A stretch of DNA of 64,000 nt, from contig NC_092000.1 in assembly GCF_044704955.1 (NCBI RefSeq), positions 4,774,001 through 4,838,000 on the forward strand, in the 5' to 3' direction. Source of the stretch: Pristiophorus japonicus (taxonomy: Eukaryota). The position numbers were made by a program, and so were the translations under genes. Under the pieces are notes generated by a model. The model had not been told where the DNA came from. It ran no database searches and saw nothing but the letters and a program-made list of their open reading frames with translations. Positions 35,135 to 41,039 of the stretch are shown in pieces; positions within the stretch are counted from its first letter, which is position 1, and each line of letters starts with the position of its first letter.

Positions 35135-35218
35135 ATGTCGACTAAGACCGGCAGCGAGCTGCTGATGCACAGAATGGTGAAGCAACTGCGGATGGAGGCC
35201 AGTGTGGAGCGGGTCATG
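35135..35218 (+). CDS. GNG5-like: G gamma coding exon 1
   Basis: Acceptor tttctctccag at 35128, AAACATG start, donor ATG|GTGAG. Confidence 0.9.
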
Positions 35219-38200
35219 GTGAGAGGGAGAAGGGGGCAGCCTGGCAGTGACTCCAGGGGCTTTCATCAAGGGGCTGGAGAAGGCAGGGAGTGGCAGCTCC
35301 TGAGCACGCAGGCCCGGGGAGACAGCAACAGTCACCCACTGCAAACACACACAGTGCGTTCACCCCACCCCCAGTCACTGCAAACACACACAGTGCGTTC
35401 ACCCCACCCCCAGTCACTGCAAACACACACAGTGCACCCCCCAGTCACTGCAAACACACACAGTGCGTTCACCCCACCCCCAGTCACTGCAAACACACAC
35501 AGTGCACCCCCCCCAGTCACTGCAAACACACACAGTGCGTTCACCCCACCCCCAGTCACTGCAAACACACACAGTGCGTTCACCCCACCCCCAGTCACTG
35601 CAAACACACACAGTGCACCCCCCCAGTCACTGCAAACACACACAGTGCACCCCCCCCAGTCACTGCAAACACACACAGTGCACCCCCCAGTCACTGCAAA
35701 CACACACAGTGCGTTCACCCCACCCCCAGTCACTGCAAACACACACAGTGCACCCCCCCCAGTCACTGCAAACACACACAGTGCACCCCCCCCAGTCACT
35801 GCAAACACACACAGTGCACCCCCCCAGTCACTGCAAACACACACAGTGCACCCCCCAGTCACTGCAAACACACACAGTGCACCCCCCAGTCACTGCAAAC
35901 ACACACAGTGCACCCCCCCCCAGTCACTGCAAACACACACAGTGCACCCCCCAGTCACTGCAAACACACACAGTGCGTTCACCCCACCCCCAGTCACTGC
36001 AAACACACACAGTGCACCCCCCAGTCACTGCAAACACACACAGTGCACCCCCCAGTCACTGCAAACACACACAGTGCACCCCCCCAGTCACTGCAAACAC
36101 ACACAGTGCACCCCCCCAGTCACTGCAAACACACACAGTGCACCCCCCCAGTCACTGCAAACACACACAGTGCGTTCACCCCACCCCCAGTCACTGCAAA
36201 CACACACAGTGCGTTCACCCCACCCCCAGTCACTGCAAACACACACAGTGCACCCCCCCAGTCACTGCAAACACACACAGTGCGTTCACCCCCCCCCCAG
36301 TCACTGCAAACACACACAGTGCACCCCCCCAGTCACTGCAAACACACACAGTGCACCCCCCCAGTCACTGCAAACACACACAGTGCACCCCCCCCAGTCA
36401 CTGCAAACACACACAGTGCACCCCCCCAGTCACTGCAAACACACACAGTGCACCCCCCAGTCACTGCAAACACACACAGTGCACCCCCCCAGTCACTGCA
36501 AACACACACAGTGCGTTCACCCCCCCCCCCAGTCACTGCAAACACACACAGTGCACCCCCCCAGTCACTGCAAACACACACAGTGCACCCCCCCAGTCAC
36601 TGCAAACACACACAGTGCACCCCCCCAGTCACTGCAAATACACACAGTGCACCCCCCCAGTCACTGCAAACACACACAGTGCACCCCCCCCAGTCACTGC
36701 AAACACACACAGTGCACCCCCCCAGTCACTGCAAACACACACAGTGCACCCCCCAGTCACTGCAAACACACACAGTGCACCCCCCCAGTCACTGCAAACA
36801 CACAGTGCGTTCACCCCACCCCCAGTCACTGCAAACACACACAGTGCACCCCCCAGTCACTGCAAACACACACAGTGCGTTCACCCCACCCCCAGTCACT
36901 GCAAACACACACAGTGCACCCCCCCCAGTCACTGCAAACACACACAGTGCACCCCCCCCAGTCACTGCAAACACACACAGTGCACCCCCCCAGTCACTGC
37001 AAACACACACAGTGCACCCCCCAGTCACTGCAAACACACACAGTGCACCCCCCAGTCACTGCAAACACACACAGTGCACCCCCCCCCAGTCACTGCAAAC
37101 ACACACAGTGCACCCCCCAGTCACTGCAAACACACACAGTGCGTTCACCCCACCCCCAGTCACTGCAAACACACACAGTGCACCCCCCAGTCACTGCAAA
37201 CACACACAGTGCACCCTCCCAGTCACTGCAAACACACACAGTGCACCCCCCCAGTCACTGCAAACACACACAGTGCGTTCACCCCACCCCCAGTCACTGC
37301 AAACACACACAGTGCGTTCACCCCACCCCCAGTCACTGCAAACACACACAGTGCACCCCCCCAGTCACTGCAAACACACACAGTGCGTTCACCCCCCCCC
37401 CCCCCAGTCACTGCAAACACACACAGTGCACCCCCCCAGTCACTGCAAACACACACAGTGCACCCCCCCAGTCACTGCAAACACACACAGTGCACCCCCC
37501 CAGTCACTGCAAACACACACAGTGCACCCCCCCCAGTCACTGCAAACACACACAGTGCACCCCCCCAGTCACTGCAAACACACACAGTGCACCCCCCAGT
37601 CACTGCAAACACACACAGTGCACCCCCCCAGTCACTGCAAACACACACAGTGCGTTCACCCCCCCCCCAGTCACTGCAAACACACACAGTGCACCCCCCC
37701 AGTCACTGCAAACACACACAGTGCACCCCCCCAGTCACTGCAAACACACACAGTGCACCCCCCCAGTCACTGCAAATACACACAGTGCACCCCCCCAGTC
37801 ACTGCAAACACACACAGTGCACCCCCCCCAGTCACTGCAAACACACACAGTGCACCCCCCCAGTCACTGCAAACACACACAGTGCACCCCCCAGTCACTG
37901 CAAACACACACAGTGCACCCCCCCAGTCACTGCAAACACACAGTGCGTTCACCCCACCCCCAGTCACTGCAAACACACACAGTGCACCCCCCCAGTCACT
38001 GCAAACACACAGTGCACCCCCCCAGTCACTGCAAACACACACAGTGCACCCCCCCAGTCACTGCAAACACACACAGTGCACCCCCCCAGTCACTGCAAAC
38101 ACACACAGTGCACCCCCCCCAGTCACTGCAAACACACACAGTGCACCCCCCAGTCACTGCAAACACACACAGTGCACCCCCCCAGTCACTGCAAACACAC

Positions 38201-41039
38201 ACAGTGCACCCCCCAGTCACTGCAAACACACACAGTGCACCCCCAGTCACTGCAAACACACACAGTGCACCCCCCAGTCACTGCAAACACACACAGTGCA
38301 CCCCCCCCAGTCACTGCAAACACACACAGTGCACCCCCCAGTCACTGCAAACACACACTCTCCCCTACACCCCCCAGTCACTGCAAACACACACACACTC
38401 ACCCCTACACCCCCCAGTCACTTCAAACACACACTCTCCCCTACACCCCCAGTCACTGCAGACACACACAGTGCACCCCCCCCGTCACTTCAAACACACA
38501 CTCTCCCCTACACCCCCAGTCACTGCAAACACACACAGTGCAACCCCCCAGTCACTGCAAACACACACACTCTCCCCCCAGTCACTGAATTACACAATGC
38601 CCCTCTCCATTTACTGCACCTCCAGTCACTCCCACTCTCTTCCCCCACTCACTGTACCCCCCCTCCCCGCAAAAACACATTGCACTCAACCCCATAGTCC
38701 CTCAATTACATATCCCCCCGTCTCTTTCCCACTTGCCCCCCAGTCGTTGCTCCCTCCTCCCCTCATTCGCTGTCCCACCCCCCAATCTCTCACCCCAAAG
38801 ATTCACCACCCTCGGAGTGCAGAAATTCCTCCTCATCTCAGCCCTAAATGGCCGACCCCTTAACCTGAGACTGTGACCCCCTGGTTCTAGACCCCCCAGC
38901 CCGGGAGAAACATCCTCCCTGCATCTACCCTGTCAATCCCCCTCAGAGTCTTGTATGTTCCAAAGCAATACAGAAAGGAAAGATAGATTACGAAAGTAAA
39001 CTTGCGCAAAACATAAAAACAGATAGTAAAAGCTTTTACCGATATATAAAACGGAAAAGAGTGACTAAAGTAAATGTTGGTCCCTTAGAAGATGAGAAGG
39101 GGGATTTAATAATGGGAAATGTGGAAATGGCTGAGACCTTAAACAATTATTTTGCTTCCGTCTTCACAGTGGAAGACACAAAAACCATGCCAAAAATTGC
39201 TGGTCACAGGAATGTGGGAAGGGAGGACTTTGAGACAATCACTATCACTAGGGAGGTAGTGCTGAACAGACTAATGGGACTCAAGGTAGACAAGTCCCCT
39301 GGTCCTGATGAAATGCATCCCAGGATATTAAAAGAGATGGCAGAAGTTATAGCAGATGCATTCGTTATAATCTACCAAAATTCTCTGGACTCTGGGGAGG
39401 TACCAGCGGATTGGAAAGCAGCTAATGTAATGCCTCTGTTTAAAAAAGGGGGCAGACAAAAGGCAGGTAACTATAGGCCGGTTAGTTTAACATCTGTAGT
39501 GGGGAAAATGCTTGAAGCTATCATTAAGAAAGAAATAGCGGGACATCTAGATAGGAATAGTGCAATCAAGCAGACGCAACATGGATTCATGAAGGGGAAA
39601 TCATGTTTAACTAATTTACTGGAATTCTTTGAGGATATAACGAGCATGGTGGATAGAGATATACCGATGGATGTGGTGTATTTAGATTTCCAAAAAGCAT
39701 TCGATAAGGTGCCACACAAAAGGTTACTGCAGAAGATAAAGGTATGCGGAGTCAGAGGAAATATATTAGCATGGATCGAGAATTGGCTGGCTAACAGAAA
39801 GCAGAGAGTCGGGATAAATGGGTCCTTTTCGGGTTGGAAATCGGTGGTTAGTGGTGTGCCACAGGGATCGGTGCTGGGACCACAACTGTTTACAATATAC
39901 ATAGATGACCTGGAAGAGGGGACAGAGTGTAGTGCAACAACATTTGCAGATGACACAAAGATTAGTGGGAAAGCGGGTTGTATAGAGGACACAGAGGCTG
40001 CAAAGAGATTTGGATAGGTTAAGCGAATGGGCTAAGGTTTGACAGATGGAATACAATGTCGGAAAATGTGAGATCATCCACCTTGGGGGGGGGGGGGGGG
40101 GGAAACAGTAAAAGGGAATATTATTTGAATGGGGAGAAATTACAACATGCTGTGGTGCAGAGGGACCTGGGGGTCCTTGTGCATGAATCACAAAAAGTTA
40201 GTTTGCAGGTGCAGCAGGTAATCAGGAAGGCGAATGGAATGTTGGCCTTCATTGCGAGAGGGATGAAGTACAAAAGCAGGGAGGTCCTGCTGCAACTGTA
40301 CAGGGTATTGGTGAGGCCGCACCTGGAGTACTGCGTGCAGTTTTGGTCACCTTACTTAAGGAAGGATATACTGGCTTTGGAGGGGGTACAGAGATGATTC
40401 ACTCGGCTGATTCCGGAGATGAGGGGGTTACCTTATGATGATAGATTGAGTAGACTGGGTCTTTACTCGTTGGAGTTCAGAAGGATGAGGGGTGATCTTA
40501 TAGAAACATTTAAAATAATGAAAGGGATAGACAAGATAGAGGCAGAGAGGTTGTTTCCACTGGTCGGGGAGACTAGAACTAGGGGGCACAGCCTCAAAAT
40601 ACTGGGGAGCCAACTTAAAACCGAGTTGAGAAGGAATTTCTTCTCCCAGAGGGTTGTGAATCTGTGGAATTCTCTGACCAAGGAAGCAGTTGAGGCTAGC
40701 TCATTGACTGTATTCAAGTCACAGATAGATAGATTTTTAACCAATAAGGGAATTAAGGGTTACGGGGAGAGGGCGGGTAAGTGGAGCTGAGTCCACGGCC
40801 AGATCAGCCATGATCTTGATGAATGGCGGAGCAGGCTCGAGGGACTAGATGGCCTACTCCTGTTTCTAATTCTTATGTTCTTATGAGACCTCAATCTAAC
40901 GTTATTGTTGCAGGTATCCCAGGCAGCGGTTGATCTGAAAAACTTCTGTCTCCAGAATGCCCACAAAGACCTGCTTCTGATGGGGGTGCCGTCAGGCGAC
41001 AATCCCTTCAGACCTCCAAAGTCCTGCCTTCTGCTGTGA
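35135..41039 (+). CDS. GNG5-like: Heterotrimeric G protein gamma subunit, GNG5/GNG10 subfamily, 69 aa, gene span
   Basis: join(35135-35218, 40914-41039): [72 protein letters not shown] motifs QLR.EA, VSQAA and NPF; CaaX CLLL; typical G-gamma intron position. Confidence 0.93.
35330..38590 (+). repeat. Minisatellite of about 3.3 kb in the GNG intron (about 30-37-bp units)
   Basis: CAGTCACTGCAAACACACACAGTGC(A|GTTCA)CCCC.. about 100 copies; no stop codon in any + frame. Confidence 0.95.
38961..40885 (+). mobile_element. CR1 LINE ORF2 (RT domain) fragment with frameshift and stops
   Basis: [36 protein letters not shown]; tail ends about 30 bp before GNG exon 2. Confidence 0.93.
40914..41039 (+). 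CDS. GNG5-like: G gamma coding exon 2
   Basis: Acceptor ttgcag; VSQAA...[12 protein letters not shown] stop. Confidence 0.93.

What the first reader, a model, noticed from the sequence alone, without database searches (positions are those of the whole stretch)
35135..41039. Possible third member of the GNG5/GNG10 G-gamma subfamily (ohnolog apparently absent in mammals)
Seen: an intact 69-aa two-exon G-gamma with CaaX CLLL. By my hand count against recalled human sequences, exon 2 is about equally similar to GNG5 (DLK.FCLQNA, NPFRP.K) and GNG10 (KD.LL.GVP.G, P.SC.LL), and the usual DPL motif is DLL. Known: human GNG5 lies at 1p22 near SSX2IP and LPAR3, GNG10 at 9q31 near LPAR1, while CLPP, DCAF15 and LPAR2 are on 19p13. 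Inference: this is a 2R paralog kept on the 19p-equivalent shark chromosome, i.e. an uncharacterised G-gamma isoform.
Basis: partly seen in the sequence, partly recalled or inferred. Interest (0 to 1): 0.7.

Follow-up and report, generated by a model that had tools for sequence, protein, structure and literature searches.

The report
Third GNG5/GNG10-type G-protein gamma gene
This shark gene encodes a small G-protein gamma subunit that is distinct from the genome's own GNG5 and GNG10, has close relatives across fishes, and is likely an old genome-duplication sister that land vertebrates seem to have lost; databases already list it, but under its sisters' names.

Summary
Confirmed. An intact 69-aa two-exon G-gamma gene; one sequencing contig joins the exons. 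The same genome holds a separate GNG5 (C8, beside RPF1-type exons) and GNG10 (C1, beside DNAJC25-type and UGCG genes). The window also holds a second SSX2IP-type gene, and its chromosome carries LPA-receptor and mucolipin paralogs. Close relatives occur in sharks, lungfish, coelacanth, sturgeons, bowfin and teleosts (often two copies); none of 202 named ones is a tetrapod. The tree gives ((GNG5, this group), GNG10) with amphioxus outside, at moderate support; the sister link to GNG5 is not statistically secured. Best reading: a whole-genome-duplication paralog, likely geranylgeranylated and working like gamma-5/gamma-10. Corrections: the DLL motif is shark-specific, and the apparent loss covers all tetrapods. 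It is annotated, under GNG5/GNG10 names. No paper on it was found, but two key papers could not be read; zebrafish copies may already be named. The scan noted this before in another genome (e1-9583139).

The parts
35135..35218 (+). First coding exon of the G-gamma gene (28 aa, predicted N-terminal helix)
   Evidence: covered by X1 contig
35219..40913 (+). Phase-0 GT..AG intron, 5,695 bases; holds a 32-base tandem array (35407-38587) and a LINE reverse-transcriptase fragment (38869-40014)
   Evidence: junction bridged
40914..41039 (+). Second coding exon (41 aa plus stop): G-gamma domain core, NPF motif, CaaX
41025..41036 (+). CaaX box CLLL, predicted geranylgeranylation site
   Evidence: sequence; rule from PMC9678972 and PMC10590752 passages
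34935..35134 (+). Likely 5' untranslated stretch, continuous with exon 1 in the X1 contig except for one skipped 56-base repeat unit; true start not known
41489..41494 (+). First AATAAA after the stop, candidate poly(A) signal (untested)
1223..9520 (-). Synteny marker: SSX2IP-type paralog, five exon matches (9520-9302, 7407-7312, 6042-5893, 3432-3355, 1423-1223) in the order of the C8 gene
26590..31650 (-). Synteny marker: CLPP exons, head to head with the G-gamma gene; first exon not located

Best explanation
This is an intact, spliced G-protein gamma subunit gene, separate from this genome's GNG5 and GNG10, that likely arose with them in the early vertebrate whole-genome duplications, was kept in cartilaginous, ray-finned and lobe-finned fishes, and seems to have been lost in tetrapods. 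Shown: the gene, the splice junction, the two other loci with their neighbours, the third group in the tree and the shared paralogous neighbours. Inferred history: one ancestral gene (amphioxus relatives fall outside all three) split into GNG10 and a GNG5-like line, which split again into GNG5 (large chromosome C8) and this gene (small chromosome C24); teleosts likely doubled it again. Inferred mechanism: the N-terminal helix would coil with a G-beta subunit; the CLLL end would be geranylgeranylated, trimmed and methylated, anchoring the beta-gamma dimer to the membrane for receptor signalling. It lacks the KKFF stretch of gamma-2/3/4 and carries two basic residues after NPF, so it would have medium membrane affinity and translocation speed, like gamma-5 and gamma-10.
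For: Three GNG5/10-type loci among 21 G-gamma matches in the genome: C24 (window), C8:10.09-10.11 Mb, C1:232.74-232.77 Mb. C8 locus: two Brix-domain exons on the opposite strand 9-12 kb downstream (E 0.0014, 0.0026, under the cut-off). C1 locus: DnaJ exon upstream (E 1e-16), UGCG-type gene 0.43 Mb on, LPA receptor 0.8 Mb away. Paralogous sets: SSX2IP-type genes on C8 and in the window; LPA receptors on C1, C8, C24 (3 matches, 0 for the control pattern); mucolipins on C8 and C24 only (11 of 11 matches). Tree of 64 proteins, 68 columns: this group 85/84, GNG5 98/43, GNG10 92/94, this group plus GNG5 87/88, all three 84/76 with amphioxus outside. Heptranchias has all three; Latimeria and Protopterus have this one and GNG10; Lampris has this one and GNG5. 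Shark members plus shark GNG10 as one clade is rejected, p 1e-41. 224 of 451 scored proteins are of this type; the 202 named ones are fishes wherever the species can be read (one name, P0460, is cut off) and the 22 unnamed are 88-100% identical in exon 2 to a named fish protein. With the lungfish query the tetrapod hits start only after more than 110 fish or unnamed hits and are GNG5.
Against: No branch that defines the three-way split is starred; 68 columns are few. AU tests do not reject this group plus GNG10 (p 0.086) nor shark members plus shark GNG5 (p 0.071). The LPA receptors pair the other way: C1 and C24 are 61% identical, C8 about 50% to each. On C8 the SSX2IP/LPAR/MCOLN block (0.2-0.9 Mb) lies 10 Mb from GNG5, and on C24 the LPAR/MCOLN block lies 23 Mb from the window, so local gene order is only partly kept. 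No fourth copy was found. No jawless-fish sequence was seen. Tetrapod absence rests on word-seeded protein searches that list 120 hits each and a search of 50% cluster representatives, not on tetrapod genomes. Run X1 is not on record as RNA. This protein has Met where at least 90% of 40 aligned relatives have Lys (position 28) and Leu for the usual Pro in DPL, which may mean relaxed selection in this lineage. G-beta binding and prenylation were not tested.
Confidence: 0.85

Rival explanations
1. It is a single-gene or small-segment duplicate of GNG5 made before sharks and bony fishes split, not a product of whole-genome duplication.
For: Tree places it as sister of GNG5 (87/88). An SSX2IP-type gene sits 26 kb away, which a small segmental copy would also explain. 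No jawless-fish data to time it.
Against: The same small chromosome also carries LPA-receptor and mucolipin paralogs of the genes beside SSX2IP on C8, which fits duplication of a whole chromosome better.
Confidence: 0.07
2. The group is not one lineage: shark copies are a cartilaginous-fish duplicate of GNG5 and the bony-fish copies arose separately.
For: AU test does not reject shark members plus shark GNG5 as a clade (p 0.071, log-likelihood 10.7 lower). Shark members share CLLL with shark GNG5 and have their own DLL.
Against: Best tree joins sharks, lungfish, coelacanth and ray-finned fishes (85/84; 90% of bootstrap trees). Exon 2 is 78-98% identical within the group against 61-73% to GNG5. 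Lungfish and coelacanth members also end CLLL.
Confidence: 0.04
3. It is the true GNG5 or GNG10 ortholog, diverged and moved, as the database names imply.
For: NCBI and UniRef call members 'gamma-5', 'gamma-10' or '-like'.
Against: Both true genes are present elsewhere with their neighbours and group with tetrapod GNG5 and GNG10.
Confidence: 0.02
4. It is the ortholog of mammalian GNG14, the little-known gamma gene recalled to lie on human 19p13.
For: DHPS, the recalled neighbour of human GNG14, is on the same chromosome C24.
Against: Tenrec GNG14 (P0449) falls with the GNG7/GNG12-type outgroup, split from the GNG5/10 side by a starred branch 98/92. A better GNG14-type candidate exists on unplaced contig C1509.
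Confidence: 0.01

Closest known systems
GNG5 (G-gamma-5)
   Same: Nearest group in the tree (87/88); same intron position; shares FCLQNA and NPFRP.K; CaaX ending in Leu; both linked to SSX2IP-type, LPA-receptor and mucolipin genes on their chromosomes.
   Different: Separate locus on a 36.5-Mb chromosome, next to CLPP rather than RPF1-type exons; 53% identical to this genome's GNG5 (35/66); GVPS.DNPF instead of GVSSSTNPF; 1-4 residues longer at the N-terminus; no tetrapod member found.
GNG10 (G-gamma-10)
   Same: Same subfamily and intron position; 56% identical to this genome's GNG10 (37/66); shares KD.LL.GVP and the SC.LL-type end.
   Different: Lacks the GNG10 marks ELQQYC, DALL and NPFREPR; not beside DNAJC25-type and UGCG genes; shark members plus shark GNG10 rejected as a clade.
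GNG14
   Same: Another little-studied two-exon gamma gene that has been lost in part of the vertebrates (pseudogene in great apes; PMC12462614 passages).
   Different: Belongs to the GNG7/GNG12 side of the tree; kept in most mammals.
Extra zebrafish gamma subunits of Mulligan et al. 2010 (recalled: 17 isoforms, some with new numbers)
   Same: Cyprinid fishes carry two members of this group, so zebrafish copies could be among them.
   Different: Could not be compared: the paper is not held; the content is recalled, nothing of it was seen beyond its citation.

Membership tests
[quoted passage not shown]
   37.8 bits, cut-off 27.1; E 1e-12 to gamma-2 over residues 3-65
Heterotrimeric G-protein gamma subunits | Free-standing protein of about 70 aa with NPF motif and C-terminal CaaX (not the GGL domain of an RGS protein) | tested here: met
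   Own ATG, 69 aa, NPF, CLLL then stop; the RGS-type matches L015, L016, L018 lack CaaX
Heterotrimeric G-protein gamma subunits | Helical fold that wraps G-beta | tested here: inconclusive
   Lone model is one long helix, pLDDT 75.5, pTM 0.37; 0 of 9 fold matches reach E 0.001, though all 9 are chains of G-protein complexes
Heterotrimeric G-protein gamma subunits | Binds G-beta, is prenylated and supports receptor signalling | not testable with these tools
   Bench assays needed; a complex prediction was not run
GNG5/GNG10 subfamily | Groups with GNG5 and GNG10 apart from GNG2/4/7/12/14 | tested here: met
   Outgroup split 98/92; identity 57% and 56% against 43% to outgroups
GNG5 orthologs | Nests in the GNG5 group and lies beside RPF1 (neighbour recalled) | tested here: not met
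   The C8 gene does both; the window gene does neither
GNG10 orthologs | Nests in the GNG10 group and lies between DNAJC25 and UGCG (neighbours recalled) | tested here: not met
   The C1 gene does both
GNG14 orthologs | Groups with mammalian GNG14 | tested here: not met
Vertebrate whole-genome-duplication paralogs (ohnologs) | Duplication after the amphioxus split and before the shark/bony-fish split | tested here: met
   Amphioxus P0371 outside (84/76); each of the three groups holds sharks and bony fishes; support moderate
Vertebrate whole-genome-duplication paralogs (ohnologs) | Copies on different chromosomes that share other paralogous families | tested here: met
   SSX2IP-type, LPA receptor, mucolipin; three families tested, not a genome-wide map
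Vertebrate whole-genome-duplication paralogs (ohnologs) | Assignment to the first or second round using jawless fishes | not tested
   No lamprey or hagfish sequence appeared by name
Vertebrate whole-genome-duplication paralogs (ohnologs) | Conserved neighbours of this gene in other species | not testable with these tools
   No other vertebrate genome is held (no relatives)

The most novel reading that the evidence does not exclude
An unnamed vertebrate G-gamma isoform, the genome-duplication sister of GNG5, kept for over 400 million years in every jawed-fish lineage including lungfish and coelacanth, doubled in teleosts, lost at the origin of tetrapods, never recognised as a lineage in print, and serving a fish-specific signalling role that GNG5 and GNG10 do not cover.
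Probability: 0.3. Interest if true: 0.55.

Novelty: new member of a known kind. Interest (0 to 1): 0.36.

Why it matters
It adds a lineage to the vertebrate G-gamma set and shows that hundreds of fish proteins labelled gamma-5 or gamma-10 are a third gene, which can mislead knockdown, expression and orthology work in fish models. Mouse Gng5 loss is embryonic lethal (PMC3944967, title and abstract start seen); a fish with this sister gene could buffer such a loss, which is testable in zebrafish. A loss between lungfish and tetrapods gives a dated gene loss to link with tissue expression. The mechanism itself is ordinary G-protein biology.

Tried and rejected
Expression: no RNA holder was listed; 3 runs of unknown kind from 1 study were laid; only X1 covers exon 2, X2 and X3 show no cover, which says nothing on expression. 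An upstream non-coding exon was suspected from an acceptor-like stretch at 35129, but the X1 contig runs through it unspliced. A processed retrocopy as source of the joined contig is unlikely: no intronless copy among 18 matches or 21 matches. Structure prediction and fold search added nothing firm. ESM Atlas gave only G-gamma clusters of chordates. Pfam scan of 148 open frames (134 from 41373-63644, 14 others; out of 358 listed of 62 aa or more outside tandem repeats) found no further gene right of the G-gamma gene, only reverse-transcriptase pieces and one sub-threshold hit. The genome-wide Brix search missed the C8 exons and found one match on C24. LPAR3 was not in C8:200-400 kb; it was then found at 0.62 Mb. 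The GNG14-type gene could not be placed beside DHPS. Literature: 10 searches listed no paper describing a third GNG5/10 lineage; seen as listings only, except passages of PMC4373759, PMC3944967, PMC12462614, PMC10590752, PMC12516192 and passages plus the first part of section 7 of PMC9678972. Not held: Lagman 2012 Genomics, Mulligan 2010 and 2011, PMC3231772. Most subscription papers are outside the library and no supplements were read, so 'not in print' is not established. Tree rows: 64 picked by hand from 478 proteins then held; N-terminal extensions trimmed.
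Full report
The gene. The sequence shows an ATG at 35135, 28 codons and a GT donor at 35219, then an AG acceptor ending at 40913 and 41 codons ending CLLL and TGA at 41039. Exon 2 passes the Pfam G-gamma cut-off (37.8 against 27.1 bits). A UniRef entry labelled Pristiophorus 'gamma-10-like' has the same 69 residues (P0001), so the gene is already annotated. In run X1, one 318-base contig lies on 40913-41003 with no differences and on 35043-35220, where its loose end reads the start of exon 2. 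The run's kind is not on record, but no intronless copy was seen in the genome, so a spliced transcript is the likely source.

Other loci in the genome. The G-gamma profile found 21 matches. Three are of GNG5/10 type: the window (C24), C8:10.11 Mb and C1:232.77 Mb; first exons for the last two lie 22 kb and 25 kb upstream, with the intron at the same codon boundary. The C8 gene has two Brix-domain exons tail to tail (weak, E 0.0014 and 0.0026), as recalled for human GNG5 and RPF1. The C1 gene has a DnaJ-domain gene just upstream, a UGCG-type gene 0.43 Mb further and an LPA receptor 0.8 Mb before, as recalled for human GNG10. Human GNG5 on chromosome 1 and GNG10 on 9 are given in PMC9678972 (passages). 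No fourth copy was found.

Neighbourhood. CLPP lies head to head on the minus strand and DCAF15 begins just right of the window. The search for SSX2IP found the main gene at C8:0.23 Mb and two weak matches inside the window; these are exons of a second SSX2IP-type gene, four at 40-73% identity in the same order and a fifth between them. LPA receptors of the LPA1-3 type lie on C1, C8 and C24, mucolipins on C8 and C24 only. C24 also holds DHPS, a Brix gene and a BTB gene I read as NACC1 (name recalled). C24 is 36.5 Mb, C8 243 Mb and C1 546 Mb. Against a tidy picture: the blocks are 10 Mb (C8) and 23 Mb (C24) from the gamma genes, the C24 receptor is closer to the C1 one (61%) than to the C8 one (50%), and its best solved-structure match is LPA1 (365 bits) before LPA2 (315).

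Relatives. Exon 2 retrieved 121 proteins; the first 113 are sharks, lungfish, coelacanth, sturgeons, bowfin, teleosts or unnamed, and carry 'gamma-5' or 'gamma-10' names at random. The lungfish query gave the same order, with tetrapod GNG5 only at the end. The C1 exon retrieved true GNG10 from sharks to mammals. Of 530 proteins held, 451 had a scorable exon 2; 224 sort to this group, 165 to GNG10, 50 to GNG5 and 12 to none. The 202 named members are fishes wherever the name can be read; the 22 unnamed are 88-100% like a named fish protein. Several teleosts have two members (Astyanax, Electrophorus, Megalops, Scleropages). This is good but indirect evidence of loss in tetrapods, since no tetrapod genome was searched.

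Tree. With 64 hand-picked proteins and 68 columns the result is ((GNG5, this group), GNG10), with amphioxus P0371 and a hemichordate outside (names) and GNG2/4/7/12/14 types beyond a starred branch. Supports are moderate: 85/84 for the group, 98/43 for GNG5, 92/94 for GNG10, 87/88 for the pair. AU tests reject shark members plus shark GNG10 (p 1e-41) but not shark members plus shark GNG5 (p 0.071) nor the group plus GNG10 (p 0.086). So three old lineages are well supported by tree, loci and species overlap together; the sister link to GNG5 leans on the tree and on SSX2IP and mucolipin pairs. Identity of the window protein is 70% to its group, 57% to GNG5, 56% to GNG10 and 43% to outgroups.

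How it likely works. All 16 invariant columns of a 40-protein alignment are kept. By family knowledge the first helix pairs with G-beta. A CaaX ending in Leu is geranylgeranylated, and residues between NPF and the cysteine set membrane affinity; gamma-5 and gamma-10 are in the medium class, 41-124 s (PMC9678972 section 7 part 1; PMC10590752 passages). This protein has RPPKS there and no KKFF, so medium affinity is predicted. Among 158 full-length members 79 end in Phe and 75 in Leu; the lipid for the Phe class is untested. DLL is confined to 8 shark proteins of 186, and GNG10 has DAL at that place, so the proline is not essential. The lone-chain model and fold search are inconclusive.

What is known. 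Ten library searches listed no paper on a third GNG5/10 lineage. The two papers most likely to hold it, Lagman 2012 and Mulligan 2010, are not held. I recall that the latter counts 17 zebrafish isoforms with extra numbers, so fish copies may be named. GNG14 is a different gene.

Verdict. A new member of a known kind; interest 0.36.

Noticed in passing
window 1223-9520, minus: A second SSX2IP-type gene, 40-73% identical to the C8 gene in four exons plus a fifth match; open in the exons seen. Human SSX2IP is recalled as single, so this may be another paralog lost in tetrapods.
   Followed up: partly
window 33085-33098: A perfect X-box-type palindrome (RFX site, consensus recalled) directly after CCGGAAGT in a GC-rich unique stretch between CLPP and the G-gamma gene; 1 match, 0.03 expected, 3 of 100 shuffles reach it; the pattern was chosen after seeing the site. 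Possibly a shared promoter.
   Followed up: partly
G000:C1509 (L010-L012, L019-L021, L084-L087): Unplaced 30.4-kb contig with three tandem copies of a GNG7/12/14-type gamma gene, each with an inverted broken exon-2 copy; could not be placed beside DHPS on C24.
   Followed up: partly
G000:C1:96.77 Mb (L002) and C18:8.68 Mb (L004): Two GNG7-type genes besides GNG12 on C8 and the C1509 gene, which suggests a full four-member set of that subfamily in sharks, one more than the recalled human GNG7, GNG12, GNG14.
   Followed up: no
L013/L028 and L036 (C8:10.09-10.11 Mb): Shark GNG5 has a changed C-terminal part compared with bony vertebrates and is preceded by more than 20 kb of satellite-like repeat.
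   Followed up: no
L059:2546-5241 and L101:2633-8089 (C24:4.71 and 4.86 Mb): Endogenous retrovirus-like stretches: RNase H, integrase and MLV-type integrase C-terminal domains in L059 and similar broken-up frames in L101. Observed only.
   Followed up: no
window 35407-38587: A 32-base tandem array of about 95 copies fills over half of the G-gamma intron.
   Followed up: no
window 34986-35043: The X1 contig skips one 56-base unit of a short tandem repeat in the likely 5' untranslated part; allele or contig collapse.
   Followed up: no
L102:5002-5487, minus (C24:4.87 Mb): An open frame that reads like a DNase II exon (recognition recalled, not scanned), beyond DCAF15.
   Followed up: no
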